The notes under the pieces were generated by a model. It made no database searches. It was not told where the DNA came from and saw nothing but the letters and a program-made list of their open reading frames with translations. Both the position numbers and the translations under genes were made by a program. Positions 7,901 to 29,902 of a DNA stretch of 32,000 nt are shown here, piece after piece; positions within the stretch are counted from its first letter, which is position 1, and every line of letters begins with the position of its first letter. The stretch comes from Candidatus Saccharimonadota bacterium (GTDB taxonomy: Bacteria; Patescibacteriota; Microgenomatia; UBA1406; GWC2-37-13), in contig MGBH01000001.1 of the NCBI GenBank assembly GCA_001790095.1, positions 930,001 through 962,000 on the forward strand, in the 5' to 3' direction.

Positions 7901-10900
7901 ACTTTGGAACCGTCCCCTATCCTTCCGCACTTCCCCTGGTGGAGATACAGGACTGACAGATAGATTATATATTGCAGCAAATGGCAATGTGGGAGTGGGG
8001 ACGACAAATCCAGTGGCAAAACTGGATATTAAAGGAACTTTCTCCTCTGAAGTTGGATATTCATCTTACACTGGCGATGGTGTTTGGAATGCAAATGCTC
8101 GACCTTCTAAAATTATTACGCCGAATTTGCATGAATTGCGATTTGGTTACTCTGATGCAGGAGGAGGTCAATATTATCCATCTATCGGTTTTGCAGCAAA
8201 TAGTACTGCCGTAAATGATTCTCTATTAATTCTCCAGTCAAGAGTCGCTTTAGGTACACCAGAATCATACAATCGATGGCAAGTAAGCGGAGGGGGAACA
8301 ATCAGCTGGGGTGCAGGAAGTGGTGCGGTTGATACAAACCTCTATCGCGTTGCAGCTAATATATTAGGCACCGATGACACACTATATGTAGGCGGCAATA
8401 TAGGCATCGGTACAACTTCCCCCCTTGAAAAACTTGATGTCACAGGCAATGCATCTGCCTCAGGATATGTCACGGTCGGACAAGCAGGAGCTTTAAGAAG
8501 TCAATATGGTCCGCTTAATCTTGCATACAAATCAGGATTAAATACCTGGACAACGGGGATGGTGTTAAAGGATGGAACGGGATATGTGGGGATTGGAACA
8601 ATTAATCCAACGTATTTATTAGATGTATCAGGCGGATCTGGAATTGTGGGAAGATTTAGCGGAAGAGTGATTGGAGGCGATGCAGTTGCTTCAAATGAAT
8701 TCGTAACGTTCGGTCAGTTGGCTGGAGGATCAGGACAGTATTGGCAAAGATCAGGAGAAGCTTTATCACCAAGCAATATTTGGAACTCAATAAATGTGGG
8801 AGCAACTGCAACAGCATCTGCTTATGTACATCTTGCAGGTACTCCGAATGAAAACTCATTTGTAAATACAGGAAATTTTGGCATTGGAACTATCTCTCCT
8901 GTTGCTAAACTTGATGTAGTAGGTAATGCAAGCATCTCCGCTTCTTTATCTTATAGAAGTGGAGCCCCAAATTATGTAAATGTATTAGGTAACCAACCTC
9001 TATCATTCCGAACTTCACCAGGAGGTGACGCAGGATTAACTGATAGATTTACTCTCTTGGCAAATGGAAATATAGGTATAGGAACAACAGCGCCTGCTAC
9101 AAAACTTGACATCGACACAAGTTCAAATACAACCGGATTGCGACTTCGCGGATTAGCGGAAACTGTTGAGATATCAGATATCTATGTTGGATCAAATGGC
9201 ACATTCATATTAGATAATACAGTCGGAACAGGTAGTAGTGGATATATTGATCTTCGTCCTGAAGATAATGATTATGGCATGGTCCTTCGTGAATCCGACG
9301 GTACAGGAACAGGCTCATTTGCCAATTTTTATGTCGTTGACGCTGCTACAGACTACATGAATATTATCGTCAATGGAGCTCAATCAACAACAGGATTGGT
9401 TGTAAATGCAAACGGAAATGTGGGGATAAACAATACTTCCCCCCTTGAAAAACTTGATGTCACAGGCAATGCATCTGCCTCAGGATATGTCACGGTCGGA
9501 CAAGCAGGAGCTTTAAGAAGTCAATATGGTCCTCTTAACTTAGCATATAAGTCTGGAGTGAACTCATGGACTACGGGGATGGTTCTTCAGGATGGGACAG
9601 GAAACGTGGGGATTGGGACAACAAATCCAGTGGCAAAATTACAGGTCTATCCTGGATATACCACAGGAACATACAATGGTATCAATGTATCTGGCGGGAC
9701 AACAGGTGGAACTTATAACGCTTTCTCAACGGATGCATTTGTAAACAGTGGAGCTGGAACAGTTACCGGTTTATCGATCACCAGCAGGATACAAAACGCC
9801 GCTACTTCTTCTAATGCATACGGCATTAATGCTACTGTATATAAGGGTAGCGGTTCAACCGGAACGACAACTGCTATTTATGGAGCTAATTTAAGAGTTC
9901 TAAACTCAAGTAGTGATGTTATTACAGATACTTACGGTCTAAAAATAGCTGACATCTCAAATTCCGGAACCATGAGCAATACTTATGGAGTGTATGTAGG
10001 AGACATTACTGCTGGAACCCAAACCAATACCCCATTCTCATTTTATGCATCTGACGCAAACGCATTAAATTACTTTGCTGGAAATGTCGGAATAGGTTCA
10101 TCTGCTCCCACCTCCTTCAAACTTGAGGTTGCAGGTGACATAGGCCCTGATGCTGATGGTACTCGGGATATTGGTTCACCCTCCAGGTACTATGACACCG
10201 TCTATGCAAACAATGTGGTAGGACTTGGTGCTCTGGGATACTGGTCAAGAGGTACGGGCGTATTGTTTCCTTCAACCACCACTGATGGAGTAGCTGCGAC
10301 AGGTTCAGCAACCACCGTTGCAACATTCACCGCCTCAGGGACAAATGATGCAGCACGTTTGGGAGGATCAGCTAACTATATAACCGTATCCCCCAGTGGA
10401 GATCTTTCATTCACCGGAGCTAATGCTGATGCGATCAATAAAGTATCAGGGACGTTAAATATAAACACAACCAATAACCAGGCGATAACTACCGGGACTG
10501 GTCAGGTCACCTTGGCGGGTAATGTGGATGCCACCAACGGACTTGATGTGACTACCGCTAACCTTACGGTTGGAGGAGCAAACTTTACCGTGGTTCCGGG
10601 TACGGGAAATATCACAACAGCGGGTACTGTTTCCATTGCAACCGGTCAATCATACACAGGAGCAGGCACCGTAACCCTCTCCTCTGCTGCTGCATCGAGT
10701 CTTACCATCAACTCAGGAACAACCGGTGCCATAGCTATTGGGAATGATGCATCTGCCGAAACAATTGGTCTGGGTACTGGTGCGGCAGCAAAAACAATAA
10801 CCATAGGCAATACCACAGGCGCAACCGCACTCAATCAACGGGTGGGTACAGGGAACTATACTCTTGACGGAGTTGCTGGATCAACCTATGCGTTTGGTGC

Positions 10901-13900
10901 ATCAACAACCACTGGCACCATGACAATCGGAGGCACAGCACAGACAGGACTTCTCACTTTGGGACAAAGCTCTGGTACCAATATTGTTGCTATTGGATCA
11001 GGTACAGGAGCAACAACCGTACAGATAGCAAACGGCGCAACAAACGGAAAAACAGTACAGATTGCAACAGGAGCTGTTGCAAATACCGTTTCTATGGGAT
11101 CAACCACGGGCGCATCTGCTACTACTCTTAATGCTGGATCAGGGAATCTTACCCTAAATGCCACATCCGGCAATGTAGCACTTCAAACTACTACAGCCGG
11201 AAATATTACCCTTACGCCAGGAGGCACCGGAGACATAAACATCACGGCTGATGCCGACTCATTTGTAAATATTGCAGGCCTCACAGACAGCACTGGCACC
11301 AGTCTTTGTCTTGATGGTTCAAGCAATCTTATTACTTGTGCAGGAGGAGGCACAGGCAATACATTGCAGGCTGCATATGATAATGGAAATACCATCACCA
11401 CAACCACTGCAAGAAATATTGCATTTACTTTAGGAGAAGTTGCAACACCTACTTCCCTTACTCTTGAAAATCAAGACACAGCCGGAACAAATGCGCAGCG
11501 AATCTTTAATTCCATTGCTTCAGGAACATTGACTAATGGACTTCTGGTTGAACAAACAGGAGCGGGTACCATGACCAGCGGAATAAATATAACACAAACC
11601 GCCGGAACTATATCAAGCGGTCTTACTTTCACTGGGATAACCAATGATATTACAACCGGTGCAAACCAACACCTGGCCCTTATGCCAAATGGAACTGGCA
11701 ATGTGGGTATAGGAACAACAAGTCCTGCTTATAACTTAGAGATCGAGGACGTTGGTGATGCTGCGATATATTTAGAAGCTGATTCCGCCGGAACTGGATC
11801 AGAAGATAATAATGCGTTTATTAAACTGAGTCAAGATGGTTTGCTTGTACAATCAATATTTGGAACTGTAGGCAATGCTGGATATGATCCAGAAAATGTC
11901 GCATATACTAATACCTTAGCTAACGCAACACTCCTGGGAACCTTAGACAATAATGGAGCGCTTCAGTTTGGGACAAACGACGCAGTCCGTATGACAATTG
12001 CAGCAACTGGAAACGTAGGTATTGGGACAACTTCTCCCACTCTTTTTAACCTTCAAGTAACAGGCAATATAGGCCCAACTACTACAAACAACTATGATCT
12101 TGGATTAACAGGTACCAGATGGAGAACAGGATATTTTGGAACTTCTCTTGACTCTCCTTCTTTAACCTATGCAGGTACTCTTGCATTGTCTGCAACAGGA
12201 GCAAATATAATAACGATGTCAACCAATGGATCTGAGAGATGGAGAGTTGCATCCAATGGAGTACTTCAGTCAAACGGTGCACAAACCATACAGACCTCAA
12301 CCGGTAATCTTACTCTTGCAACAGCTGCAGGAAACGGACATATACTTCTTTCTCCAAATGGGACGGGAAATGTGGGGGTGGGGACAACAACACCCACATC
12401 TTTCAAACTTGAAGTTGCCGGTAATATCGGACCTGATAGCGATATTACCAGAAATATAGGAGCATACAATAAGCGAATTGCCAATACATACACAGGAGTA
12501 ATTGATGAAAGCATATTTACCCAGGCAGGTGAAAATGCCATCAAGAATTCTGATCGTTACAATGGTGGACCGGGTGGATGGGGTACTGCGGCAAACTATT
12601 CTGAGGCTGTTGTGGTTGGGCCACAAGGAACAGAGGTACGAGCAATTACAAATTCAACTCCATTGAGCACGGCCGGATTATTAACTGATTATTTACCCGT
12701 TGATCCGAAAAAAGCATATCTGCTTGAATACTGGATCAAGCAGGATGACATAAGTGCAGGAACTGGAACAAATTATATTGGACGTGAAGAATATACAAGC
12801 GGTAAAGCTAATAATGACCAGGGAACCGGCCCGTACACGTGGGGCGGTCAAAAACCCCCTGCAGCAAATACATGGTATCATGTATATGGAATTATTCCTC
12901 CGCATGACTCAGGCGCTGAAGTAAGTCACACAGCAACAAACAGTACGATCACTCCTGGAACTGAGTATAAATTTTGGAGTTCATACACTGCCTATATCAG
13001 GGTTAAGATATATTTAAACTACAACCAACCAAATCCTTCACAGGTCTGGGTAACAGGAGTTGCACTTCGTCCCCTTTCAAGTGGCGGTGTTAATTCTTTT
13101 TTTGCTACACCAGGTGATGCCTCAACCTCGGGAAATCTTGCGTTTGTTACTGGGAAAACAGAAAGACTTACCATCACCTCTAACGGTAATGTTGGTATTG
13201 GTACTACTGCTCCTGCTACAGGCGCAAAATTGGATGTATATGGCGGACCTATCCGGCTTGGAGCAAATACTAGTGCAAACAACCAATTAAATACGACCGC
13301 CGGAAGTGCACCATCAGGAGACCTATATTGGGGCTCTCGAACAATCTGTGATGATTCGGGAAACTGCGGCACAGCCGGAGTGTCGCCTGATTCACTAGAC
13401 TATACAGAATTCCTAGATACCATGACTCTTGATGCAAATCTTATCTTGAATCAAACAACCTACACCTGGACGCAGAACTTTACCGGGACAACGACCACGG
13501 GCTACACTTACAATGCTAACTCTCTCACATCAGGTAAAGCTCTTAGTATCGCTTCTTCTGCTACTGCATTTACCGGCACATTAGCGCAAGTTTCTTTAAC
13601 AGGCAATAACGCCGCCAATACGGGTACCATATTTAAAGCATCTTCAAACGGAGCTTTAAATACCGGCACTGTTGCTATGATTACCAATCTGGGAGCCGGA
13701 ACATCATTTAGAGTAAATGATGAGACAGGAGATGCTGACACTACTCCATTTTTAATCGATGCAGGTGGCAATGTAGGAATAGGTACTACTTCACCTGTTT
13801 CTAAACTTCTTCTTGACGATGTTACTCCAACTATAACGGGATGGCAGAGTCTTACCATAAGAAGCACCGATGCTTTAGCTATAGATAAAGGAGGAACAAT

Positions 13901-16900
13901 CGGTTTTGGAGGCAAGTATACCTCAGGAGGCACATATGCAACATGGGCAGGTATAGCTGGATTGAAAGAAAATGCAACAGATTCAAATACTTCAGGATAT
14001 TTATCGCTGCGGACAAGAGCAAACGGAGGAAACCTAACAGAACAAATGAGAATTGCAAGTAACGGCAATGTCGGCATCGGCACTACAAACCCTTCTCTTT
14101 TTAAACTTCAAGTAACAGGCAATATAGGCCCAACTACTACAAACAACTATGATCTTGGATTAACAGGTACCAGATGGAGAACAGGATATTTTGGAACTTC
14201 TCTTGACTCTCCTTCTTTAACCTATGCAGGTACTCTTGCATTGTCTGCAACAGGAGCAAATATAATAACGATGTCAACCAATGGATCTGAGAGATGGAGA
14301 GTTGCATCCAATGGAGTACTTCAGTCAAACGGTGCACAAACCATACAGACCTCAACCGGTAATCTTACTCTTGCAACAGCTGCAGGAAACGGACATATAC
14401 TTCTTTCTCCAAATGGGACGGGAAATGTGGGTATAGGAACGACGGCGCCAAGCAATCCCCTTGCAGTCATCTCTACCACTACTCCTCAGCTTCGTGTTGG
14501 TTATGACAACACAACCAATTACTTCACATCGGCAGTTGCTTCAAACGGATCAGTCACGTTTAACGCTAATGGAGCATCTGCCGCCTTTACTTTTTCAGAT
14601 CCTACTACAATATCCTCAACCGCAAATCCTGGGCTCACTGTAGGTAACGGTACGACGGGTTATCTGAAAATCGGCGGTTCAACCATATCTGATGCTGCAG
14701 GAAACCTCACATTAGATAGTGACAGTGGTACTATCAGCGCTTCAGATATTTTAAACATGGGTTGGAACGCCATAACTGGCGCATGGATAGGAGATGCTGA
14801 TTCTTATGGAGGCGGAGGATATAACAATATCGCAAATCATAACAATAATCTTATCCGAGCGGATGAAAAGGAAACCGTTACCATGAATAATGGTTGTGAT
14901 GCAGGATCAATCGCTAATATGTTTGATGGTGACCCTTCAACTATTTGTCAACTCACTGATGCTGCACCCAATGAGATCATTACTATAGATATGGGAAGCT
15001 ATGAGCATTATTGGACAGGGTTTGAGATCATGTGGACATATGATCGAGGTACTAACAACGTAACAATAGAAAAATACTGGGATCCTGACTCAACAGGTGG
15101 CTGTGATACGTGGGCAACCATTTATAGCGGAGCAGCTACAGGATACTCTACAAAAGTAAATGCGCCAGGCAATTATATATGTCAGTACCGCATCACAATA
15201 ACTGGTACGCCAGATGTTGCAAATGATGTTCGTATCGGAGACATACGAGGGTTCCAATATTATAACGACCAGAAAAATGATCTATATGCCGATATTACCG
15301 GCGCTACTTTTTACGGTGCAGTACAAGTTGGAACATCTACGACGAACAGAGACCTTGATGTATATGGCAATGTCGGCATAGTCTCCAGTAACACCACCGG
15401 TACCACAACCAGTAGTAGTCTTGGTCTTTCTGCCAACTCCCTCACAACCGGAACAGGTTTGTACGCTGCTTCATCTACCCTAACCTCAGGTAAATTAGTA
15501 GATCTTCAGGTGAGTGGGACTGCTGCAGCTGCATCTCAAACAGGACTTAATATTCTAACTGCCGGTGCCAATGGTACTGCGGGTATCACTTCTTATGGTG
15601 CACAAATATCAAATACCCATACAGGTACTACCTCTACTAATGTTGCCCTCTATCTCAATGCCTCAGGGGGTACTACAGCAAACTATGGTTTGATTGTAAA
15701 CGCTGGTAATGTGGGTATCGGAACGACAGCACCGGGAGCAAAACTTGACGTGTATAATCCATCAGGCACCACCCTTGCTTTAGCAGCCCAGGTCCAAAAC
15801 CTTAATAATGCAACTGGTCAAAATGGGCTTCTTGTCAATGTCGCCCGTGTGACTACAGATGATGCCACATACGGACTCAATGTCCAAGGAGGCGGCACAA
15901 GCCGACTTTACGTGAGAGGTGACGGATTTGTGGGTATTGGTACTACCGCCCAATCAGCCAACTGGCCTACTGATCTGCTTTTTATAAACGGTGAATTTAC
16001 TGCTGACAAATTCAATGATTCAGGAAGCAATAACCGCTATATTGATCCCAATGGCACCTCACGAATAAGCTATCTTGAGATGAGAAACGATCTCACCTTT
16101 ATTGACGCCGGCAATGCCGGCATCGGTAAAATCAACTCAAACGGAAGTTCTGTTATTATTGAAGGCCCTACTGGAGGCACAACAGACCTCTGTGTTGAGG
16201 ATCCTGATACTGGAACAGGCGGAGAATGTGACGGTAAAATCGACGCAGGTACCATCGACCCTCCCTACACTATAAATGGGAAAAAATATGCTACATACAT
16301 GGCCTCCATGACAGGGGTCAAAGAAGAAACTACCGATACCGTACATATTGAGTCAAAGATAGCAGAAGGCAGATATGCGTATGTTATTGACTTTAATAAT
16401 CAACCCATTGGATCTGACTTATGGCTTTTTAGTAAAACAACTCATCTTAAAGATAACCTAGATCATATGAGCGTTCTTCTCACTCCAACTGATGATACAC
16501 GGACGTGGTACAAAGTAGATAACACCGGAGATCATCTCACCCTTATTCTTTATTCTTCACGACCAACACAGATATCATATCGACTTACTGCTCCACGCTT
16601 CAATGCTGAAAATTTTGCCAATATTAGACCAGATAATGCTCCTGGCGGATTCTTGATAAACGATCCCGATATCATAGGTTCCCCCTATACTATCACTGAA
16701 GTTGGATCTTTAACCGATACGCATCATATAGCTTCAACTCAACCAACCAATACCTCGCTTGAAAGCTTAAGAGAGACAATATATCAAGTTGTGCACAACA
16801 CAAGCGGAGAAATGATAGAAGAGGTAGCAGTTTTCAACAAAATATTGATAGGTAAAATCCAGGCTGGTTTTGTGGAAGCACAAAATGCTGTTGTGACCAA

Positions 16901-18263
16901 CGTATTAAACGCTTCACATATCGTATCTGAAAATATTTCAAGCTATTCGCTACAAGTCACAAAACTTTTTGTAAACGAAAAGATAATCAGCCCGATCGTT
17001 GAGACTACAGATCTGTCAGCCTCAGGTACTGCAACTCTTGCGACTATAAAGACCGATACCATCAAACCGCAAGAACAAAATGTCACGATAGACCTCAATA
17101 CTTCTTCAGACAAAGGTACATTTGCCAAGCTCATCGTAAACGGTATCAACAATATAACTGTTGCATCTATTGATGAAGCAGGTAACGCTACGTTTGCAGG
17201 CTCCCTGACTAGCGTATCAGTGATCAGTGATCAGCTGTCAGTAAATGATGCAACCATATCAGGAAGTCTAACTGCCAATGAGGCCAGTCTTTCGGGTAAA
17301 CTCATTGCGAAAGAGATTGTATCTGATAATATCAGCGAGCTTACGGAAAGAACCGCCGCGGTTGAGGAGCAAAGCGGGAAAACCGCGGAGGTTAATGAGG
17401 TTTTGAGCAACAGTATTAATCAGGTTCAACAGGATCTTGCGGCGATAAAAAACCTACCTCTCCCTAACCCCGCCTATTATCAAAATTTGAGTGACTACCC
17501 TGTTGCAACTGTTTCTTCACTTCTTGCTCAATCAATTCAGACAGAAGATCTTACTGCGACTGGCAATGTAAACCTTTACAAAGCCTCAATCGCTGATTCC
17601 CTCACGGCCGGAACTATTTTTATGCAGGATAACTCTATCCTCTCTCTTTCATGGGAGCTCAAACTTTCAGCTCTTGCTCAGATCACTCTTTTTGACGGAA
17701 GTGTGGTCATCGCAAAAAATGGAAACATTACTACAAAAGGAGAACTCATCGCTGAGGGAGGAGTCCGGACGGATGAAATACAATCAATCGATGGAAAAAA
17801 AGACATCGCTATCAAACTAAATTCTCAATTGTCAAATTCCAATGAAAATTCATTGAAAAATGCAAAATTGAAAATTGAAAATTCCGAAGGCATGGATGTT
17901 GCCTCAATCGATGCCTCAGGCGCAGCCCGTCTCAACAGTTTAGCCTTCACTCATATATCTACCAACTCTGCTATCATTGCTGATTCAGGAGAACGCACTG
18001 TGGATGATGAAATCATCCCGGCTATTGAAACCAATGCTGAGGTGGCAGGTACCGGAGTCCTGCCCGTGGATGCACCGGAGATTATAATATACAATAATAG
18101 TGTTACGGCAGATTCTCTCATCTATCTGACTCCGATTGGTGAAACGCCAATCAATCAGCTCACGGTTGTGAAAAAGGAGATACATGGCCGTCCATATTTC
18201 TCAGTCTCATCCGGTACTACTCTCCATCCAGAGATCAAGTTTAATTGGTTGATTATAAACTAG
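4950..18263 (+). CDS. Giant (4437 aa) N-terminally membrane-anchored surface protein with tail-fibre-like repeats and lectin-like modules
   Basis: A single uninterrupted ORF. About 90 aa form a cytoplasmic head, followed by one TM helix (YIGFAIIFVLMAMLGAGLYNQFF, ~5226-5290). By my count there are about 25 copies of the motif GNVGIGTTxPxxKLDV/KLEV, often followed by G(D/N)IGPxxDxTRDLGSxSxRW. That signature is typical of phage tail-fibre-domain proteins. The protein also contains a G/T/A-rich beta-helix-like tract (~10260-11300), a CBM-like module, a discoidin-like module and a long C-terminal stalk. Confidence 0.9.
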   Translation: MIKINTDSIFQFVKALKRKSVPKNEIKRRLLSVDRFIKWAHQKSYLADDTFKQIQDEIAKLAIGDQRLEIGNQFPITNRQSLISNYSFGIQHYIGFAIIFVLMAMLGAGLYNQFFKKTPTPFAYSTTPLQGARVISFQGRLTDSLGNPIIAPIDITYNFYTAPSGGSPIAGSTRVCTANPDQDGVFANLIGDDSGPSCSTQLPANIFTENSEVFLGVTIGSEITEMSPRQQIANVGYAMNAETLQGLPPGTTASSIPFISAQGDLLIAASTPGIRSTYTTANFVISSAQATTIQSANGGDITFNATDGGTLRFNTFNGTLNERMTITPYGNVGISNTNPRASLDVIGDASLSGNLVFNGLTSQIRQLNGGNLSFVTSPGGDLGVSTKMTLLNNGNLGIGTTVPIYKLDVAGAASIAGNLMTGGQMQLGRFVADPTAVGSGSMYFNTTNNTIYYYNGTDWTQVGSGGGGGDNVWQRVLDGVVIPKIAADALNLGNSATASATVHLAGKTGDNSFINTGNFGIGTTGPAMKLDLGTGYSTNNSTFRTGTYELQPYALNNAFLAENAYYNGSTWTRRNTGYAEGFQFFNGQTLFFNNTSGTGSFSATYPFKTDSGNSGSVALGGNINTATGNYSGSSMVVLGTGNVGIGTTSPLEKLDVRGNATVSGYLTIGQSGALRSQYGPLNLAYKSGVNSWTTGMVLKDGSGNVGIGTTNPETKLHVYTSTAIGTYRDIYAKQIIDDADARLQIRSGDTGNYGSGLILSTADKSWAMMAQASSDNNNFYIGYKSSATDEDIMAGSSKHFTINTSGNVGIGTTNPLEKLDVRGNATVSGYLTIGQSGALRSQYGPLNLAYKSGVNSWTTGMVLQDSTGNVGIGTLNPTSFKLEVAGDIGPEADNTRDLGSASRYWNTIYVNNIVGSGALGYWQIDSNVLHPANQWASVVDLAIGGTSTSSAKFQVYGSGTNAGTASSSGQLTFNNNSGTHYVNSLWNRPLSFRTSPGGDTGLTDRLYIAANGNVGVGTTNPVAKLDIKGTFSSEVGYSSYTGDGVWNANARPSKIITPNLHELRFGYSDAGGGQYYPSIGFAANSTAVNDSLLILQSRVALGTPESYNRWQVSGGGTISWGAGSGAVDTNLYRVAANILGTDDTLYVGGNIGIGTTSPLEKLDVTGNASASGYVTVGQAGALRSQYGPLNLAYKSGLNTWTTGMVLKDGTGYVGIGTINPTYLLDVSGGSGIVGRFSGRVIGGDAVASNEFVTFGQLAGGSGQYWQRSGEALSPSNIWNSINVGATATASAYVHLAGTPNENSFVNTGNFGIGTISPVAKLDVVGNASISASLSYRSGAPNYVNVLGNQPLSFRTSPGGDAGLTDRFTLLANGNIGIGTTAPATKLDIDTSSNTTGLRLRGLAETVEISDIYVGSNGTFILDNTVGTGSSGYIDLRPEDNDYGMVLRESDGTGTGSFANFYVVDAATDYMNIIVNGAQSTTGLVVNANGNVGINNTSPLEKLDVTGNASASGYVTVGQAGALRSQYGPLNLAYKSGVNSWTTGMVLQDGTGNVGIGTTNPVAKLQVYPGYTTGTYNGINVSGGTTGGTYNAFSTDAFVNSGAGTVTGLSITSRIQNAATSSNAYGINATVYKGSGSTGTTTAIYGANLRVLNSSSDVITDTYGLKIADISNSGTMSNTYGVYVGDITAGTQTNTPFSFYASDANALNYFAGNVGIGSSAPTSFKLEVAGDIGPDADGTRDIGSPSRYYDTVYANNVVGLGALGYWSRGTGVLFPSTTTDGVAATGSATTVATFTASGTNDAARLGGSANYITVSPSGDLSFTGANADAINKVSGTLNINTTNNQAITTGTGQVTLAGNVDATNGLDVTTANLTVGGANFTVVPGTGNITTAGTVSIATGQSYTGAGTVTLSSAAASSLTINSGTTGAIAIGNDASAETIGLGTGAAAKTITIGNTTGATALNQRVGTGNYTLDGVAGSTYAFGASTTTGTMTIGGTAQTGLLTLGQSSGTNIVAIGSGTGATTVQIANGATNGKTVQIATGAVANTVSMGSTTGASATTLNAGSGNLTLNATSGNVALQTTTAGNITLTPGGTGDINITADADSFVNIAGLTDSTGTSLCLDGSSNLITCAGGGTGNTLQAAYDNGNTITTTTARNIAFTLGEVATPTSLTLENQDTAGTNAQRIFNSIASGTLTNGLLVEQTGAGTMTSGINITQTAGTISSGLTFTGITNDITTGANQHLALMPNGTGNVGIGTTSPAYNLEIEDVGDAAIYLEADSAGTGSEDNNAFIKLSQDGLLVQSIFGTVGNAGYDPENVAYTNTLANATLLGTLDNNGALQFGTNDAVRMTIAATGNVGIGTTSPTLFNLQVTGNIGPTTTNNYDLGLTGTRWRTGYFGTSLDSPSLTYAGTLALSATGANIITMSTNGSERWRVASNGVLQSNGAQTIQTSTGNLTLATAAGNGHILLSPNGTGNVGVGTTTPTSFKLEVAGNIGPDSDITRNIGAYNKRIANTYTGVIDESIFTQAGENAIKNSDRYNGGPGGWGTAANYSEAVVVGPQGTEVRAITNSTPLSTAGLLTDYLPVDPKKAYLLEYWIKQDDISAGTGTNYIGREEYTSGKANNDQGTGPYTWGGQKPPAANTWYHVYGIIPPHDSGAEVSHTATNSTITPGTEYKFWSSYTAYIRVKIYLNYNQPNPSQVWVTGVALRPLSSGGVNSFFATPGDASTSGNLAFVTGKTERLTITSNGNVGIGTTAPATGAKLDVYGGPIRLGANTSANNQLNTTAGSAPSGDLYWGSRTICDDSGNCGTAGVSPDSLDYTEFLDTMTLDANLILNQTTYTWTQNFTGTTTTGYTYNANSLTSGKALSIASSATAFTGTLAQVSLTGNNAANTGTIFKASSNGALNTGTVAMITNLGAGTSFRVNDETGDADTTPFLIDAGGNVGIGTTSPVSKLLLDDVTPTITGWQSLTIRSTDALAIDKGGTIGFGGKYTSGGTYATWAGIAGLKENATDSNTSGYLSLRTRANGGNLTEQMRIASNGNVGIGTTNPSLFKLQVTGNIGPTTTNNYDLGLTGTRWRTGYFGTSLDSPSLTYAGTLALSATGANIITMSTNGSERWRVASNGVLQSNGAQTIQTSTGNLTLATAAGNGHILLSPNGTGNVGIGTTAPSNPLAVISTTTPQLRVGYDNTTNYFTSAVASNGSVTFNANGASAAFTFSDPTTISSTANPGLTVGNGTTGYLKIGGSTISDAAGNLTLDSDSGTISASDILNMGWNAITGAWIGDADSYGGGGYNNIANHNNNLIRADEKETVTMNNGCDAGSIANMFDGDPSTICQLTDAAPNEIITIDMGSYEHYWTGFEIMWTYDRGTNNVTIEKYWDPDSTGGCDTWATIYSGAATGYSTKVNAPGNYICQYRITITGTPDVANDVRIGDIRGFQYYNDQKNDLYADITGATFYGAVQVGTSTTNRDLDVYGNVGIVSSNTTGTTTSSSLGLSANSLTTGTGLYAASSTLTSGKLVDLQVSGTAAAASQTGLNILTAGANGTAGITSYGAQISNTHTGTTSTNVALYLNASGGTTANYGLIVNAGNVGIGTTAPGAKLDVYNPSGTTLALAAQVQNLNNATGQNGLLVNVARVTTDDATYGLNVQGGGTSRLYVRGDGFVGIGTTAQSANWPTDLLFINGEFTADKFNDSGSNNRYIDPNGTSRISYLEMRNDLTFIDAGNAGIGKINSNGSSVIIEGPTGGTTDLCVEDPDTGTGGECDGKIDAGTIDPPYTINGKKYATYMASMTGVKEETTDTVHIESKIAEGRYAYVIDFNNQPIGSDLWLFSKTTHLKDNLDHMSVLLTPTDDTRTWYKVDNTGDHLTLILYSSRPTQISYRLTAPRFNAENFANIRPDNAPGGFLINDPDIIGSPYTITEVGSLTDTHHIASTQPTNTSLESLRETIYQVVHNTSGEMIEEVAVFNKILIGKIQAGFVEAQNAVVTNVLNASHIVSENISSYSLQVTKLFVNEKIISPIVETTDLSASGTATLATIKTDTIKPQEQNVTIDLNTSSDKGTFAKLIVNGINNITVASIDEAGNATFAGSLTSVSVISDQLSVNDATISGSLTANEASLSGKLIAKEIVSDNISELTERTAAVEEQSGKTAEVNEVLSNSINQVQQDLAAIKNLPLPNPAYYQNLSDYPVATVSSLLAQSIQTEDLTATGNVNLYKASIADSLTAGTIFMQDNSILSLSWELKLSALAQITLFDGSVVIAKNGNITTKGELIAEGGVRTDEIQSIDGKKDIAIKLNSQLSNSNENSLKNAKLKIENSEGMDVASIDASGAARLNSLAFTHISTNSAIIADSGERTVDDEIIPAIETNAEVAGTGVLPVDAPEIIIYNNSVTADSLIYLTPIGETPINQLTVVKKEIHGRPYFSVSSGTTLHPEIKFNWLIIN
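5161..5206 (+). repeat. Degenerate heptanucleotide array (CYAATCN-type units) inside the cytoplasmic head of the giant ORF
   Basis: Units read as gtaatca(5161-5167) ... ccaatca(5172-5178) ctaatcg(5179-5185) ccaatcg(5186-5192) ctaatct(5193-5199) ctaatta(5200-5206). The region is translated as GNQFPITNRQSLISNY. Confidence 0.7.
6896..7033 (+). repeat. Cassette copy 1 (138-bp perfect direct repeat with 7391-7528)
   Basis: Compared base by base, with an offset of 495 nt (165 codons). It encodes SPLEKLDVRGNATVSGYLTIGQSGALRSQYGPLNLAYKSGVNSWTTG. Flanks diverge immediately on both sides. Confidence 0.95.
7391..7528 (+). repeat. Cassette copy 2 (138-bp perfect direct repeat with 6896-7033)
   Basis: See copy 1. 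The two are identical over 138 bp. Confidence 0.95.
8415..8512 (+). repeat. Cassette copy 3 (98-bp perfect direct repeat with 9435-9532)
   Basis: The offset is 1020 nt (340 codons). It encodes SPLEKLDVTGNASASGYVTVGQAGALRSQYGP. This is a variant of the same cassette as copies 1 and 2. Confidence 0.95.
9435..9583 (+). repeat. Cassette copy 4, mosaic: 5' part identical to copy 3, 3' part identical to copy 2
   Basis: 9435-9532 is identical to 8415-8512. 9525-9583 is identical to 7476-7534 (59 bp), whereas copy 3 differs there (ccgcttaatcttgcatacaaatcagg). The crossover falls within the shared tatggtcc. Confidence 0.9.
12051..12376 (+). repeat. 326-bp perfect direct repeat, copy A (with 14106-14431)
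   Basis: The offset is 2055 nt (685 codons). Identity was checked line by line and is supported by the identical antisense ORFs 12082..12300 and 14137..14355 in the track. It encodes LQVTGNIGPTTTNNYDLGLTGTRWRTGYFGTSLDSPSLTYAGTLALSATGANIITMSTNGSERWRVASNGVLQSNGAQTIQTSTGNLTLATAAGNGHILLSPNGTGNVG. Confidence 0.97.
12531..13075 (+). other. CBM4_9-like / jelly-roll carbohydrate-binding module within the giant protein
   Basis: The stretch ENAIKNSDRYNGGPGGWGTAANYSEAVVVGPQGTEVRAI...DPKKAYLLEYWIKQDD...NTWYHVYGIIPP...YIRVKIYLNY...VWVTGVALRP breaks the fibre-repeat pattern. It has the W / sG..v / Y.l..W.k / W..v spacing of CBM-type sandwiches. Recognition is by eye. Confidence 0.4.
14106..14431 (+). repeat. 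326-bp perfect direct repeat, copy B
   Basis: See copy A. There is one mismatch at 12050/14105 and the next at 12377/14432. Flanking sequence is clearly diverged. Confidence 0.97.
14821..15265 (+). other. F5/8 type C (discoidin/CBM32)-like module within the giant protein
   Basis: The stretch AGSIANMFDGDPSTICQL...EIITIDMGSYEHYWTGFEIMWTYDRGTNNVTIEKYW...CDTWATIYSG...YRITITG fits the a.n.fDGd..T.W...i.iDLG....i..i.i.W pattern of discoidin domains. Confidence 0.5.
17832..17883 (+). repeat. Copy of the dispersed heptamer-based module, in-frame in the giant ORF (SNSNENSLKNAKLKIEN)
   Basis: tcaaattccaatga (17832-17845) is 14/14 identical to the reverse complement of 28628-28641. aaattcattgaaaaatgcaaaattgaaaattgaaaatt (17846-17883) matches the reverse complement of 28575-28612 at 36/38. 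Confidence 0.9.
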
Positions 18264-25549: not shown

Positions 25550-25884
25550 ATGGAAAAGATCGTGTCATTTTCTGATTTGATTGCATGGAAAAAAGCACAT
25601 CTTTTCCATCAGAAGAAAAATTTTGTCTCATTGATCAGTTACGAAGAGCAGCAGTAACTATTACAAGCAATATTGCAGAAGGCTTCAATAGAAAAACACC
25701 ACTAGATAAGATTCATTTTTACTATACTGCCATATCTTCTGTTAGCGAAATACAAAGCCAGTTATATATAGCCCATGACCTACAATATATCACTGTAAAG
25801 ACATTTAGTAATCTTATGAGCGAGTCTGTAGAGATTCATAAACTAATCAATGGTCTTATTAAATATATGAAAAACCATACTTAA
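25550..25884 (+). pseudogene. Four-helix-bundle protein (23S rRNA intervening-sequence protein family) disrupted by a deletion and frameshift
   Basis: Frame 2 from ATG 25550 gives MEKIVSFSDLIAWKKAH, the family N-terminus, then runs out of frame to a stop at 25655-25657. Frame 1 (track ORF 25585..25884) carries the rest: FPSEEKFCLIDQLRRAAVTITSNIAEGFNRK...SEIQSQLYIAHDLQYI. WKKAH ends at 25600 and FPSEE starts at 25603, so the ~13 residues that normally separate them are missing. A truncated 99-aa product from ATG 25585 remains possible. Confidence 0.5.
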
Positions 25885-27002: not shown

Positions 27003-28322
27003 TTATACCATTTTTGCCAGGATTCGTTCGATAGCTACCTCAAACGCTGCCTGTTTAAGCGGCAGTTTTTTTGCCACTGATTTCTTCCAGATGATATCAA
27101 GAGCCTCTTCCATCATTTTTTTCAGCCTTTTGTTTACTTTTTCCTCCCTCCACGTCTCACCTTTCATGTTTTGATACCATTCAAGGTAGGATACAGTCAC
27201 TCCTCCACTGTTTGCCAACACATCAGGTACGATCACAACTCCTTGTTTTGTAAGATATTCATAGGCTTCCTCAGTCACCGGTCCGTTTGCCATCTCAACA
27301 ACTATCTTTGCTTTAATTTTCTTCATGTTTTGTGCATTTATTACATTTTCAAGCGCTGCAGGAACCAATATATCTACAGGAAGTTCTAGTAACTCCTCAT
27401 TAGATATTGTTTTTCCGTATGCTATATTACATACTGATCCTTTGCAGTAACAGCCAGCTACGCTTCCTTTTTCTTTTTTACATTTTAAGGTTGCATCCAC
27501 ATCAAGTCCTTCTTTCACATAGACTCCCCCCTTTGAATCGGAAAGAGCTACGATCGTAAATTTTTCTTCTTCTGCAAGACGAGCAAAATAGTACCCCACA
27601 TTTCCAAATCCCTGCACTGCAATTTTCAATGATTGTGTATTGGAATTTGCCTGTGATTTGTGGTTTGTGGTTTGAGTTTTGAGTTTTGAAAGCAGAGCTT
27701 TTAATATTATAACCCCTCCTCTTCCCGTAGCCTCTGTTCGACCCAACGTACCTCCTAAATCAAGCGGCTTCCCGGTAAAAGTAGCCCATAACTGGCTTTT
27801 CGTATAATGGGTTTTTCTTGCCTGTTGAATCTTCACATACTCATCCACCATCCATCTCATGATCTGCGGATTAGTGTTGACATCGGGAGCTGGCACATCA
27901 TACTCTGGTCCAACAAAGGACGAAATCGCACGAGCATATGCTCTTGATATTCGTTCAAGCTCGCCCCCAGACACTGTCTTGGGATCAAAGATCACTCCTC
28001 CCTTGCCTCCACCGTACGGAATACCTGCTACTGCACATTTTATCGTCATGAGTGTTGCTAGGGCTCTTACCTCATCTCTGTTTACATTGGGGTGGAATCG
28101 AATTCCCCCTTTATAAGGGCCAAGGGCGTTATTATGCTCTATCCTATAGGCGGTAAATATTTTTTCTGTTCCATCATCCATAGTCACTGAAAAATGCAAT
28201 TCATGTACTGCATCAGATTCAAGAAGCCTGTCTATCGTTGCATCCGGAAGTTTGAGACCCTTTGCCGTTTTAGTTATAACCCCAAGAGCCGACTCGAGCA
28301 TTTTTTTGCCAGTGTTGGACAT
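27003..28322 (-). CDS. gdhA: Glutamate dehydrogenase (Glu/Leu/Phe/Val dehydrogenase family)
   Basis: It has the catalytic-Lys motif GPYKGGIRFHP, then GIPYGGGKGG and DVPAPDVNT, and the Rossmann motif VQGFGNVGYYFA. The stop lies 12 nt before the M23 gene start. Confidence 0.9.
   Translation of the reverse strand: MSNTGKKMLESALGVITKTAKGLKLPDATIDRLLESDAVHELHFSVTMDDGTEKIFTAYRIEHNNALGPYKGGIRFHPNVNRDEVRALATLMTIKCAVAGIPYGGGKGGVIFDPKTVSGGELERISRAYARAISSFVGPEYDVPAPDVNTNPQIMRWMVDEYVKIQQARKTHYTKSQLWATFTGKPLDLGGTLGRTEATGRGGVIILKALLSKLKTQTTNHKSQANSNTQSLKIAVQGFGNVGYYFARLAEEEKFTIVALSDSKGGVYVKEGLDVDATLKCKKEKGSVAGCYCKGSVCNIAYGKTISNEELLELPVDILVPAALENVINAQNMKKIKAKIVVEMANGPVTEEAYEYLTKQGVVIVPDVLANSGGVTVSYLEWYQNMKGETWREEKVNKRLKKMMEEALDIIWKKSVAKKLPLKQAAFEVAIERILAKMV
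27618..27688 (-). repeat. Heptamer-based module in-frame in gdh (KTQTTNHKSQANSNTQSLKIA)
   Basis: On the plus strand, tgcaattttcaatga (27618-27632) is 15/15 identical to 28594-28608 in trxB, and attggaatttg (27639-27649) is 11/11 identical to 28630-28640. Five tandem heptads follow: tgatttg tggtttg tggtttg agttttg agttttg (27654-27688). Confidence 0.85.
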
Positions 28323-28416
28323 ATATGTTAATAATTAATAATTATAAGCAGAAGTGCCGATATGTTTTTTATGCGACTTGGGAATAAAAGGGTTCCCACC
28401 GAGCAAAAAAAATATA

Positions 28417-29478
28417 TCAAACTTCTGAATTTGCTTCTAACCAGTTTTCAACATCTAAAGCCGCACCCACACCCATACCAGCAGCTACAGCTGCCTGACG
28501 ATAAATATGATCGACACAATCTCCAGCTGCAAATACACCCCTGACAGATGTTGCGGTTTGATAATCCATATCAAAATTTTCAGTTTTCAATTTTGCAATT
28601 TTCAATGAATTTTCAGTTTTTAATTGATCATTGGAATTTGATTGATAATTGGATCTTGATAATTGAAAATTAATAAGTGCTGCTCGCTGTGTTGTCACTA
28701 TATAGCCTTTATCATCAAATTTAACCATATCTTTAAATAAATCCGTATCTGGTTTATGGCCGATAGCAACGAACAGCCCGTCAATTTTTAATTGTCGGTC
28801 GGTTGAAACTAGCTGAGAACTGATTTCAGCCGATTTCAACCGTACTCCTTCTACTCTGTTTTGTCCTAAGACTTCTTCAATCGTACTGTTCCATATAATC
28901 TCAATTTTGGTATTTTCTTTTACCCGCTTTTGCATTATTTTGGATGCACGGAAATCCGAACGTCTGTGGATAATAAACACTTTTGATGCGAACTTAGTGA
29001 GAGTAAGAGCTTCTTCAAGCGCTGTATCTCCACCACCAGCCACACCAACTATTTTGTTTTTGAAGAAAAATCCATCGCAGGTTGCACATGCAGAGACTCC
29101 CTTACCTCGCAGTCGCTGTTCGCTGGCAAGTCCAAGCCATAATGCTTTTGCGCCTGTTGCGATGATAACGGATTTGGTTTTAATCGCTTGAACCAGTTTG
29201 TCTGATTGATCAAATTTGACCAGCTGTACATTTTCATCGATGATATGTGCGCCGAACTTTACGGCTTGTTTGCGCATCTTGTCAATAAGTTCTGAGCCAA
29301 GAATATTTTCATGTCCGGGATAGTTTTCCACTTCAGATGTAAGCACCAACTGTCCTCCTGGCGGAGATCCTGCATATATGATAGGTGCAAGGCCCGCTCG
29401 CCCCAGATATATTCCAGCAGATAATCCAGCAGCCCCTCCCCCTATGATAACTACGTCTTTTAGATCTGACTGTTTCAT
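28417..29478 (-). CDS. trxB: Thioredoxin-disulfide reductase carrying an internal insertion
   Basis: It has the FAD motif VVIIGGGAAGLSAG, the redox-active CATCDG, the NADPH motif GVAGGGDTALEEA...HRRSDFRA, and C-terminal GVFAAGDCVDHIYRQAAVAAGMG. At 353 aa it is longer than the ~310-320 aa usual for the family. Confidence 0.92.
   Translation of the reverse strand: MKQSDLKDVVIIGGGAAGLSAGIYLGRAGLAPIIYAGSPPGGQLVLTSEVENYPGHENILGSELIDKMRKQAVKFGAHIIDENVQLVKFDQSDKLVQAIKTKSVIIATGAKALWLGLASEQRLRGKGVSACATCDGFFFKNKIVGVAGGGDTALEEALTLTKFASKVFIIHRRSDFRASKIMQKRVKENTKIEIIWNSTIEEVLGQNRVEGVRLKSAEISSQLVSTDRQLKIDGLFVAIGHKPDTDLFKDMVKFDDKGYIVTTQRAALINFQLSRSNYQSNSNDQLKTENSLKIAKLKTENFDMDYQTATSVRGVFAAGDCVDHIYRQAAVAAGMGVGAALDVENWLEANSEV
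28566..28680 (-). repeat. Heptamer-based palindromic module in-frame in trxB, about 115 nt
   Basis: Heptads attgata attggat cttgata attgaaa attaata lie at 28641-28675, and TGAAAAY-type units lie at 28575-28612. An internal inverted repeat CAATGA...TCATTG is present. The module is stop-free in the coding frame and translates to INFQLSRSNYQSNSNDQLKTENSLKIAKLKTENFDMDY. Confidence 0.85.
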
Positions 29479-29525
29479 ATTTGGTTTTCTAGGTGATAAT
29501 ACTATATATTAAAAAAAAATACAAA

Positions 29526-29753
29526 TCACAGGTTTATTGCCCTTTCAATCATCTTTTCCACCTTGCTTACGTCTTTCTCAGGTAAAAACTCGCACATATC
29601 AGAAACGACAATCTCTTTGGAAAGACCATCGATCGCTTTCTTGATGGCAGATATTTGTTGTAGAACATCACTACACTCTCTTTTTTCCTTTACCATGCGC
29701 TGTATTCCTTTTAATTGTCCAATCACACGGTTAATTCGTTGATCTAAGTCCAT
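29526..29753 (-). CDS. CsoR/RcnR/FrmR-family (DUF156) transcriptional repressor, His-less x-C-x-C type
   Basis: The 75-aa protein reads RINRVIGQLKGIQRMVKEKRECSDVLQQISAIKKAIDGL...SDMCEF. This is the family pattern R..R..GQ..g...M.e....C.dvl.Q..A...A. Cys occupy positions 27 and 54, and Val sits where the Cu-ligand His of CsoR would be (4 residues before the second Cys). Confidence 0.8.
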   Translation of the reverse strand: MDLDQRINRVIGQLKGIQRMVKEKRECSDVLQQISAIKKAIDGLSKEIVVSDMCEFLPEKDVSKVEKMIERAINL

Positions 29754-29792
29754 GAATAACGTTTTATAATTGGTAACTTCCTTTTACTCTCG

Positions 29793-29840
29793 CCCCCCTA
29801 TACTCAGTACTAGTATAGAGTATACAATATTAAATTTCAA
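29793..29840 (-). promoter_or_regulatory. Promoter plus candidate CsoR-family operator for the csoR-like/trxB operon
   Basis: On the minus strand, TTGAAA (plus 29835-29840) is followed by a 17-nt spacer and TATACT (plus 29812-29817). The inverted repeat CTATACT(29798-29804)-N7-AGTATAG(29812-29818) overlaps the -10 element. It abuts a C6/G6 tract (29793-29798), the G/C tract flanked by AT-rich arms typical of CsoR/RcnR operators. Confidence 0.5.
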
Positions 29841-29900
29841 GTATCAATTCTCAATTTTCAAACAATTGCCAATTTGGCAAATGAGAATCGAAAATTATCC
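29841..29900. repeat. Intergenic low-complexity segment related to the heptamer module, with a 15-nt palindrome
   Basis: attctcaatt (29847-29856) is identical to 17821-17830 next to the giant-gene copy. aattttc and gaaaatt motifs are present. The perfect palindrome TTGCCAAtTTGGCAA lies at 29866-29880. Confidence 0.6.
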
Positions 29901-29902
29901 AC

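What the first reader, a model, noticed from the sequence alone, without database searches (positions are those of the whole stretch)
27618..27688. The same module family sits in-frame in glutamate dehydrogenase, next to five tandem heptads
The segment between GRG and the Rossmann motif QGFGNVG is 34 residues (GVIILKALLSKLKTQTTNHKSQANSNTQSLKIAV). That is roughly 10 more than in the GDHs I can recall.

The extra DNA shares tgcaattttcaatga (15/15) and attggaatttg (11/11) with the trxB module. It continues into the tandem heptads tgatttg/tggtttg/tggtttg/agttttg/agttttg. The shared core is read in the same frame as in trxB (ANSNTQSLKIA versus SNSN..ENSLKIA).

Two adjacent essential-type enzymes carrying the same foreign low-complexity DNA argues against coincidence.
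Basis: partly seen in the sequence, partly recalled or inferred. Interest (0 to 1): 0.65.

Follow-up and report, generated by a model that had tools for sequence, protein, structure and literature searches.

The report
Repeat-derived insert in GDH surface loop
The extra 13 residues in this glutamate dehydrogenase are an old, decayed piece of A/T-rich repeat DNA in a surface loop that collects such inserts in related bacteria, and the same repeat family turns out to be spread, often in frame, through many housekeeping genes of candidate-phyla-radiation (CPR) bacteria.

Summary
The glutamate dehydrogenase (GDH) of this Candidatus Roizmanbacteria genome has a loop 11-13 residues longer than solved GDHs and its closest homologue. 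It holds five heptads and shares 15/15 and 11/11 nt with the trxB insert.

- The last 6 nt of the 15-mer (ATTGCA) are native GDH codons. About 10 nt of the heptad run are native SKLK codons.
- The loop DNA is colinear with longer loops of sister GDHs, so it looks like an old, truncated insert, not a fresh one.
- Against a profile of the repeat family, the GDH piece alone is not significant (E 0.15). trxB (4e-10) and the giant ORF (1e-9) are clear members.
- The shared reading frame is forced, because only one sense frame lacks stops.

The larger result is that this GDH loop is an insertion hotspot (25-77 residues in 119 homologues). The trxB/giant module belongs to a CPR-wide 45-100 nt heptad-periodic, partly palindromic element. 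It sits in frame in loops of LepA, GatB, UvrC, MiaB, Fmt, RecG and others, or directly 5' of start codons. One copy is 44/44 identical between genes whose flanks are 57% identical.

The closest known analogue is the Rickettsia palindromic element. I found no CPR description.

The parts
27003..28322 (-). Glutamate dehydrogenase gene (439 aa), intact
   Evidence: PDB GDH hits at E 1e-108. PF02812 and PF00208 in homologues. AlphaFold2 mean pLDDT 92.9. TM-score 0.90/0.95 and rmsd 1.5 A to Thermococcus profundus GDH.
27624..27677 (-). Non-native stretch of the loop, codons TQTTNHKSQANSNTQSLK. It replaces about 15 nt (IKQAT) of the closest homologue, a net gain of 39 nt or 13 aa.
   Evidence: Codon-level comparison with L001. 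Gap of 11 aa against PDB GDHs. pLDDT below 50 only at residues 221-227.
27654..27688 (-). Heptad run. On the coding strand it reads CAAAACT CAAAACT CAAACCA CAAACCA CAAATCA. The first units overlap the native SKLK codons (27678-27689).
   Evidence: Tandem Repeats Finder period-7 arrays. Colinear with the heptad-like loops of L122, L123 and L124, 34/48 nt to L122 by my hand count.
27624..27650 (-). Fragment resembling the dispersed element (GCAAATTCCAAT-ACACAA-TCATTGAAA, peptide ANSNTQSLK)
   Evidence: Together with the native ATTGCA that follows, 27/33 identical to the giant-ORF copy at 17832-17864, BLAST E 3e-5. Fourth-best hit of the family profile in the window, E 0.15. Sister GDH P0093/L124 has ..NSNSLKISNFKLQIP.. 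at the same place.
27618..27623 (-). ATTGCA (Ile-Ala of strand beta-A, KIAVQG).
   Evidence: The same ATT GCA/GCG is present in L001, L122 and L124. KIAVQG is also present in Thermococcus GDH.
28575..28671 (-). Clear full element in trxB, an imperfect palindrome of about 98 nt (peptide INFQLSRSNYQSNSNDQLKTENSLKIAKLKTEN)
   Evidence: Family profile E 3.9e-10. Self-complementary at 71% over 98 nt. 84% over 75 nt to the giant-ORF copy, E 2e-14. 21 residues longer than the L001 TrxB loop.
17820..17884 (+). Clear element copy, in frame, in the 4437-aa ORF (peptide QLSNSNENSLKNAKLKIEN)
   Evidence: Family profile E 1.4e-9. 44/44 nt identical to the copy in the L059 homologue, while the flanks are 56-57% identical.
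29826..29896 (-). Weak intergenic copy upstream of the csoR-like gene, trxB and gdh
   Evidence: BLAST E 5e-4 to the trxB and giant copies. Profile E 0.06. Fold z-score -2.3. Its TTGAAA heptad forms a sigma-70-like site, TTGAAA-17-TATACT, 10/12.
28417..29478 (-). Thioredoxin reductase gene (353 aa), host of the reference module
   Evidence: 100% identical to A2334_01670 of Candidatus Roizmanbacteria RIFOXYB2_FULL_38_10.

Best explanation
The GDH segment is an in-frame expansion of a surface loop by 13 residues (39 nt). The loop joins the long helix after the GRG motif to strand beta-A of the NAD(P)-binding Rossmann fold. The expansion is made of decayed A/T-rich, heptad-periodic repeat DNA.

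Shown:
- This loop is an insertion hotspot across Roizmanbacteria and other Microgenomates GDHs, ranging from 25 to 77 residues.
- In several relatives the loop holds clear copies of a dispersed CPR repeat, read as ..ENSLKI.NLKLKI.. .
- The window's loop DNA is colinear with the proximal part of longer loops in sister GDHs.
- It ends in a 24-32 nt piece that resembles the element copies in trxB and the giant ORF, butted against native ATTGCA.

Inferred:
- An ancestor of this clade acquired repeat DNA in the loop.
- The insert then drifted by heptad slippage and point change.
- In this lineage it lost its distal part through an in-frame deletion, plausibly between two ATT codons.

How it gets in and why it is tolerated:
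- The element is a 45-100 nt sequence with a sharp 3' end (...GAAAATT). It is built of RAAAATT heptads and often has an inverted copy 10-30 nt upstream.
- It spreads or is homogenised at the DNA level by an unidentified copy-and-paste or gene-conversion process. No transposase is present in the window.
- Selection keeps only copies in the single stop-free frame and in permissive surface loops, where the peptide is a largely disordered passenger.
- The GDH fold and catalytic residues are untouched.
For: - Loop excess.
- Hotspot: 119 homologues, 25-77 residues, median 31; 4 carry the element-core peptide and 7 the NSN../NLEF type.
- Family-profile hits in the GDH loops of other genomes: L002 E 4e-6, L004 E 3e-4.
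- Colinearity with L122, L123 and L124, and clade membership of P0001 with P0002, P0003, P0004 and P0093.
- Similarity above chance. The four best profile hits in the 64 kb searched (both strands) are exactly trxB, the giant ORF, the trxB-upstream spacer and the GDH loop.
- Element family: at least 117 genome loci, mostly CPR. Sharp 3' edge and heptad consensus. An upstream inverted copy in 42 of 118 copies versus 0 of 118 downstream.
- Conservation is the same in coding and non-coding copies.
- An identical 34-mer occurs in LepA, GatB and intergenic contexts.
- Hosts confirmed by Pfam.
- Only 2 hits in 2.9 million viral contigs.
- Surface and disordered: pLDDT below 50 only at residues 221-227, helix 195-219, strand 233-237. 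Fold intact.
- Frame forced by stop codons.
Against: - Against the family profile the GDH piece alone is not significant (E 0.15, 14 nt aligned).
- 6 of the 15 matching nt, and probably CAGGCA as well, are native.
- The shuffle tests give only p of about 0.005-0.01.
- The closest homologue, P0002, has no insert. Vertical inheritance therefore needs a loss in that lineage, or else independent gains. The tree is neighbour-joining on 395 columns with no support values.
- The deletion-between-ATT step is inferred from one sister sequence.
- The palindromes are not more stable than shuffled sequence in coding copies (z 0.07, -0.9, -1.1).
- No target-site duplications, transposase or empty/filled allele pair were found, so mobility is inferred and not shown.
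Confidence: 0.68

Rival explanations
1. Purely local origin. The loop grew by replication slippage of its own heptad-like SKLK codons in an A/T-rich genome. The matches to trxB are compositional or convergent, helped by the native ATTGCA.
For: The heptad run starts in native codons and ATTGCA is native. The 11-mer alone is at chance level. The family-profile E value is 0.15. Period-7 arrays are common all over the window, including intergenic AGTTAGT x4.
Against: The best non-self hit of the loop in 64 kb falls exactly on another copy of the module, at E 3e-5 and 1-2 of 200 shuffles. Sister GDH loops carry clear element copies at the same site. The non-periodic pieces (AATTCCAAT, TCATTG) are shared.
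Confidence: 0.2
2. A recent insertion of the same mobile module into GDH and trxB in this genome.
For: 15/15 and 11/11 nt shared with trxB. The trxB and giant copies are 84% identical over 75 nt within one genome.
Against: The GDH loop is colinear with orthologous loops of 62-70% identical GDHs. Only a fragment is present and there is no palindrome. There are no length variants among 18 contigs and 4 accessions.
Confidence: 0.05
3. The insert is an adaptive, peptide-level feature of GDH, for example a regulatory or partner-binding loop that is conserved because of its amino-acid sequence.
For: The loop is retained without frameshift or strain variation. The helix is predicted to extend into it.
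Against: Loop sequence and length are hypervariable among orthologues. The segment has low pLDDT. The same DNA is equally conserved in non-coding copies, so the constraint is not on the peptide.
Confidence: 0.06
4. Assembly or gene-calling artefact.
For: None specific. Low-complexity DNA can be misassembled.
Against: The same 439-aa protein is recovered on 18 contigs from several sources, including a 1.2-Mb contig. The ORF is intact and the model confident.
Confidence: 0.01

Closest known systems
Rickettsia palindromic elements (RPEs)
   Same: Short dispersed repeats that sit in frame inside unrelated housekeeping genes, are read in one frame, lie at positions compatible with the protein fold, and also occur between genes (review PMC10969869). 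Here the hosts are TrxB, LepA, GatB, UvrC, MiaB, Fmt, RsmA, PrmC, RecG, RNase HII and GDH.
   Different: A different phylum. The element is shorter (45-100 versus about 150 bp), strongly heptad-periodic and A/T-rich, and its hairpin is weak. It is conserved across CPR phyla and strongly co-oriented with genes, often abutting start codons. No sequence relationship to RPEs was tested.
Intragenic miniature inverted-repeat elements (MITEs; e.g. enterobacterial RU/ERIC, Correia) and REP/REPIN-RAYT systems
   Same: Small non-autonomous palindromic repeats, sometimes read through as peptide (PMC2759123, PMC3184786, PMC3116915).
   Different: No terminal inverted repeats with target-site duplication were defined and no cognate transposase was found. 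A PF01797 Y1 transposase gene lies near GDH in L002/L003 only.
Cyanobacterial short tandemly repeated heptanucleotide sequences and small dispersed repeats (from my own knowledge: Mazel 1990; Elhai 2008)
   Same: A 7-nt tandem periodicity and very small dispersed units that can lie inside genes.
   Different: Different sequences and taxa. Here a defined composite unit with a sharp 3' end is conserved, not only a heptamer.
Asn/Lys-rich low-complexity inserts in Plasmodium falciparum enzymes (e.g. PMC11260460, listed)
   Same: A/T-driven N/K/S-rich disordered inserts in loops of conserved enzymes.
   Different: Those inserts arise locally by composition and slippage. Here identical 34-44 nt units recur in unrelated genes and genomes.

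Membership tests
Glutamate dehydrogenase (ELFV dehydrogenase family) | N-terminal ELFV domain plus Rossmann domain with the GxGxxG motif and the GGGKGG catalytic-lysine motif | tested here: met
   PDB hits at E 1e-108. Invariant K107, G238, G240 and G243. TM-score 0.90 to 8zmu.
CPR dispersed 'ENSLKI..LKLKI' element (defined here) | Significant match to the profile built from 111 copies in other genomes | tested here: inconclusive
   For the GDH piece: E 0.15, 14 nt aligned. For comparison, trxB gives 4e-10 and the giant ORF 1e-9.
CPR dispersed 'ENSLKI..LKLKI' element (defined here) | Similarity to same-genome copies above chance | tested here: met
   27/33 identical to the giant-ORF copy, BLAST E 3e-5; reached by 1-2 of 200 shuffles.
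CPR dispersed 'ENSLKI..LKLKI' element (defined here) | Sharp 3' end ...TTGAAAAYTGAAAATT and an upstream inverted arm | tested here: not met
   The GDH copy stops at TCATTGAAA followed by native ATTGCA. The loop has no self-complementarity.
Rickettsia palindromic elements | Multi-copy dispersed repeat inserted in frame in unrelated ORFs | tested here: met
   True of the element family: 41 internal same-strand copies, with the host family identified for 10 by Pfam.
Rickettsia palindromic elements | Stable palindrome or hairpin | tested here: inconclusive
   An inverted arm lies upstream in 42 of 118 copies. Folding energy is not better than shuffles in coding copies.
Rickettsia palindromic elements | Sequence homology to RPE-1 to RPE-10 and occurrence in Rickettsia | not tested
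   No RPE sequences were compared. The host is a CPR bacterium.
MITE | Terminal inverted repeats flanked by target-site duplication, and a related transposase in the genome | tested here: inconclusive
   No transposase in the window. Target-site duplications were not looked for systematically. The 5' boundary is variable.
REP/REPIN-RAYT | A single-copy Y1 (RAYT) transposase co-occurring with the repeats | not tested
   PF01797 was seen only in L002/L003. No genome-wide co-occurrence test was possible.
Simple-sequence contingency (phase-variable) locus | Repeat copy-number differences among close strains | tested here: not met
   All cluster members are 439 aa and differ by point substitutions only.
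Known structured RNA family | Rfam covariance-model match | tested here: not met
   No match at gathering scores in the window, and none at E up to 1 in 27400-30000.

The most novel reading that the evidence does not exclude
The ENSLKI..LKLKI element is not junk. It would be a cis-acting sequence shared across CPR and constrained at the nucleotide level, for example a portable promoter or leaderless-start cassette, or a recognition or uptake sequence. It would be kept even where it lies inside coding regions, so that dozens of housekeeping enzymes, including GDH in some lineages, carry its translation as a by-product.

The support is:
- 44/44 nt identity inside genes whose flanks are 57% identical.
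- Equal conservation in coding and non-coding copies.
- A strict co-orientation with genes, and 44 of 86 non-internal copies ending within about 45 nt of a start codon.
- Embedded TTGAAA -35-like boxes.
Probability: 0.25. Interest if true: 0.8.

Novelty: new variant of a known kind. Interest (0 to 1): 0.6.

Why it matters
For GDH itself the consequence is small. The insert is a tolerated, disordered surface loop.

The value lies in what the loop exposes. In CPR bacteria, whose genomes are small and streamlined, a family of short A/T-rich repeats is written into the coding sequence of many essential enzymes and into the DNA directly in front of start codons.

- It gives a second large example of in-frame selfish or functional repeats in reduced genomes, after the Rickettsia palindromic elements.
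- It explains part of the puzzling length variation of conserved CPR proteins.
- It warns against reading such low-complexity inserts as adaptive domains, or as assembly errors.
- It provides markers of permissive loops in enzymes.
- If the nucleotide-level constraint is real, it points to an unrecognised cis-element of CPR gene expression or DNA handling that could be tested with existing metatranscriptomes.

Tried and rejected
- Hairpin stability. RNA folds of the four window copies were no better than shuffles, except weakly for the intergenic copy. I therefore do not claim a structured RNA or DNA.
- Rfam. No family matched.
- Phage vector. The pattern is almost absent from 2.9 million viral contigs: 2 hits, both on contigs of about 1 Mb.
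- Strain-level heptad variation. None was seen.
- Transposase in the window. Only a fragment of an integrase N-terminal domain at 4217-4762.
- 'Same frame' as evidence of common origin. Rejected, because stops close the other two sense frames.
- Adjacency of trxB and gdh as evidence. Rejected, because the synteny is conserved.
- Peptide-level selection. Rejected as the main constraint, because non-coding copies are equally conserved.
- The metagenome scan with the exact 34-mer did not recover the window's own contig, so a whole-genome census of this genome could not be made.
- Literature searches found no description of such elements in CPR. A negative search is not proof of absence.
Full report
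**Where the window comes from.** The trxB product is 100% identical to A2334_01670 of Candidatus Roizmanbacteria bacterium RIFOXYB2_FULL_38_10, a CPR/Microgenomates bacterium. It is found on contigs of up to 1.2 Mb. The GDH is the 439-aa protein annotated next to it (A2334_01665). GC content is 35-47%.

**Checking the observation.**
- The strings and coordinates are exact.
- GDH is 27003..28322 (-) and trxB is 28417..29478 (-).
- The 15-mer TCATTGAAAATTGCA is exact in both genes. A 1-mismatch copy lies at 17850 in the 4437-aa ORF 4950..18263. Chance expectation is 0.27 matches at up to 2 mismatches.
- The 11-mer is exact at 17833, 27639 and 28630, but on its own it is at chance level.
- Tandem Repeats Finder sees two short period-7 arrays in the loop.
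- Against solved GDHs (Thermococcus, Pyrococcus, Thermotoga; E about 1e-108) there is an 11-residue gap exactly at KTQTTNHKSQA. KIAVQG aligns with native GKKIAVQGYG.

**Is it more than chance?**
- A Smith-Waterman search of the 71-nt loop against both strands of the window scores 23, against 16.6 +/- 1.6 for dinucleotide shuffles. One of 200 shuffles reaches it.
- Without the native ATTGCA the score is 18 against 12.9 +/- 1.3, reached by 2 of 200.
- The best non-self BLAST hit is not trxB but the giant-ORF copy: 32 nt at 84% by BLAST (27/33 when extended by one base), E 3e-5. The trxB 15-mer alone gives E 0.055.
- So the resemblance is real but modest.

**What is native and what is extra.** The closest homologue (P0002/L001, 75% identical) reads TCA AAA TTA AAG ATA AAA CAA GCA ACC ATT GCA GTG, which is SKLKIKQATIAV. 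The window reads TCA AAA CTC AAA [ACT ... TTG AAA] ATT GCA GTG.
- ATTGCA, the last 6 nt of the 15-mer, is therefore native. So are the SKLK codons that form most of the two perfect agttttg heptads.
- The non-native stretch is 27624-27677 (54 nt), replacing about 15 nt. The net gain is 39 nt, or 13 residues.

**The loop is a hotspot.** In 119 of the best homologues (all Roizmanbacteria, Microgenomates or Patescibacteria) the TGRGG..QGFGNVG segment ranges from 25 to 77 residues. The median is 31 and 49 are 35 or longer. The window's 38 is at the 65th percentile. The inserts fall into recurring types:
- KSQ.TNPK..QTNSNNQ..NLEFGAWNLE;
- ..NSLKIRNLKLKIP..;
- VIPNLFRDL..MLKQVQHD;
- IASEAKQSH..;
- VGAIFKSPE..DSPLQ.

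These read like translated repeat elements. That reading of the last three types is my recollection and was not tested.

**History of this copy.** With the loop masked, a neighbour-joining tree groups P0001 with P0002 (no insert), P0003, P0004 and P0093.
- At the DNA level the window's KLKTQTTNHKSQANSNTQ is colinear with KIKSQAPNPKKQTNSNNQ of L122, 34/48 nt by my hand count. It is also colinear with L123.
- L124 (P0093) reads ..NPKSKTPNPKQILNSN SLKI SNFKLQIPQDAT IAV, with the native Q(D)ATIAV preserved 3' of the insert.
- The window looks like the same arrangement with the distal part removed, giving ...NSN(TQ)SLKI|AV. I infer an in-frame deletion, possibly between two ATT codons.
- Near-identical strains (18 contigs, 4 accessions) differ only by point substitutions, so the heptads are not currently length-variable.

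**Structure.** AlphaFold2 on 99 homologues gives a mean pLDDT of 92.9. The only segment below 50 is residues 221-227 (HKSQANS). Helix 195-219 runs into the insert and strand 233-237 is KIAVQ. The model superposes on Thermococcus profundus GDH with TM-score 0.90/0.95 and rmsd 1.5 A. By Rossmann-fold topology, which is established knowledge, the N-terminal end of beta-A is on the side opposite the dinucleotide site. The insert is therefore a surface passenger.

**What the trxB/giant module is.**
- The two copies align over 75 nt at 84% (E 2e-14). Each is an imperfect palindrome: 98 nt at 71% and 58 nt at 76%. A weaker fourth copy lies in the spacer at 29826-29896.
Most are labelled CPR (Microgenomates, Parcubacteria, Saccharibacteria, Berkelbacteria), plus an Ignavibacteria genome. 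It found only 2 loci in 2.9 million viral contigs.
- The consensus is ..ATTGAAAATTCATTGAAAATTGAAAATTTAAAATTAAAAATT, with an abrupt loss of conservation after the final AAAATT. It consists of RAAAATT heptads with a CATT interruption.
- An inverted copy lies 10-30 nt upstream in 42 of 118 cases and never downstream.
- A profile built only from these foreign copies finds four hits in the window: trxB (E 4e-10), the giant ORF (1e-9), the spacer (0.06) and the GDH loop (0.15). It also hits the GDH loops of L002 (4e-6) and L004 (3e-4). L004 has three copies in 5.7 kb.

**Where copies sit.**
- Of 128 copies, 41 lie inside same-strand ORFs of at least 100 aa and 5 inside opposite-strand ORFs.
- Of the 86 copies outside such ORFs, 44 have a co-oriented long ORF starting within -45 to +42 nt of the element's 3' end. 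In 15 of these the start lies 30-45 nt inside the element, mostly at the position of its own ATG.
- Divergent gene starts are almost never that close, and no copy sits at the 3' end of an ORF.
- Internal hosts confirmed by Pfam are a MiaB-like enzyme, UvrC, RNase HII, LepA, Fmt, RsmA, a 2-oxoacid:ferredoxin oxidoreductase, RecG, PrmC and GatB. TrxB, TsaD, GT2 enzymes and a P-type ATPase were recognised by eye.
- TrxB of Microgenomates has a clade-wide insertion at the same loop, 31-32 residues without it and 51-86 with it. It has conserved anchors and a hypervariable repeat-like middle.

**Level of constraint.**
- Flank conservation and the sharp 3' edge are the same in internal, 5'-end and intergenic copies.
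- The exact 34-mer TCATTGAAAAWTGCAAAATTGAAAAYTGAAAATT occurs in 12 metagenome loci: in LepA loops, in GatB, and in 7-8 intergenic places. Similarity ends exactly at GAAAATT.
- Between the window's giant ORF and its L059 homologue the module is 44/44 identical, while the flanks are 177/315 and 175/308 identical.
- This is not peptide-level selection. It needs nucleotide-level constraint, concerted evolution or recent copying.

**Frame.** Only one sense frame of the consensus, the trxB copy and the giant copy is stop-free. Two antisense frames are open but encode Phe-rich peptides. The shared reading frame is therefore forced. The strong same-strand bias (41 to 5) is a real feature that remains unexplained.

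**Promoter idea.** The element contains TTGAAA-18-GAAAAT (9/12). The window's spacer copy provides TTGAAA-17-TATACT (10/12) upstream of csoR-trxB-gdh. These are consensus matches only.

**Comparison with what is known.** The nearest analogue is the Rickettsia palindromic element, in-frame repeats in unrelated metabolic genes (PMC10969869). Next come intragenic enterobacterial MITE-like units and REPINs. Five literature searches found no description of such elements in CPR.

**Verdict.** The GDH copy is an old, truncated, weakly diagnostic remnant. The family it points to is a substantial and apparently undescribed feature of CPR genomes.

Noticed in passing
window 17841-17884 versus L059: The element core in the giant ORF is 44/44 nt identical to the copy at the same position in a homologue whose flanking DNA is only 56-57% identical. 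This points to nucleotide-level constraint or concerted evolution.
   Followed up: partly
loci L005-L138 (element copies): About half of the non-internal copies end within 45 nt of the start codon of a co-oriented gene, and 15 ORFs start 30-45 nt inside the element. No copy lies at a gene's 3' end. This could be a portable promoter or leader.
   Followed up: partly
window 5130-5196 (+), inside the giant ORF: A second in-frame inverted repeat (31-nt arms, 81% complementary, AATCGCT heptads) translating to LAIGDQRLEIGNQFPITNRQSLISN. It is apparently another repeat family read through as protein.
   Followed up: no
window 1090-1118 (+): A perfect AGTTAGT x4.1 heptad array in the spacer, ending 4 nt before the ATG at 1123. 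Period-7 or period-14 arrays make up about half of all tandem repeats called in the window.
   Followed up: no
window 27003-28322 (-), GDH residues about 281-298: A clade-specific 9-residue insert relative to solved GDHs (AGCYCKGSVCNIAYG). C281 and C291 are invariant, and C293 and C298 are at least 90% conserved, in 99 CPR homologues. This may be a metal-binding or disulfide motif.
   Followed up: no
window 28417-29478 (-), and TrxB homologues P0121-P0240: Nearly all Microgenomates TrxBs carry a 20-55-residue insertion between GY(I/V).T and TSV.GVFAAGD. It has conserved anchors (R.A.E ... KFDFDYQ) and a repeat-like variable middle. Only a few sequences (P0213, P0239, and the TrxB on L004) lack it.
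   Followed up: partly
L002 7505-8230 and L003 3824-4549: A PF01797 (Y1 transposase, IS200/RAYT-type) gene lies two genes downstream of a GDH whose loop holds a clear element copy. It is a candidate trans-acting enzyme, untested.
   Followed up: no
window 4950-18263 and 18440-21832 (+): A 4437-aa ORF full of GNVGIGTT..KLDV repeats, followed by an 1130-aa ORF with a Peptidase_S74 (endosialidase chaperone) domain. They look like giant surface or fibre-like proteins.
   Followed up: no
window 25585-25884 (+): A free-standing 99-aa 23S rRNA intervening-sequence protein homologue (PF05635, E 9e-28), matching the profile from position 20 onward.
   Followed up: no
GDH homologues P0039, P0046, P0064, P0089, P0063, P0032, P0071, P0076, P0111; also the L099 and L037 host proteins: Other peptide motifs recur in loops of different enzymes: VIPNLFRDL..MLKQVQHD, IASEAKQSH..DKIATS, VGAIFKSPE..DSPLQ and LPAGRQG. 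They look like translations of further dispersed repeat families.
   Followed up: no
L026, L030, L043, L073, L084 (Ignavibacteria RIFOXYC2_FULL_35_21 and one other Ignavibacteria genome): The element pattern also occurs several times in a non-CPR Ignavibacteria genome from the same aquifer, always in short-ORF (intergenic) contexts.
   Followed up: no
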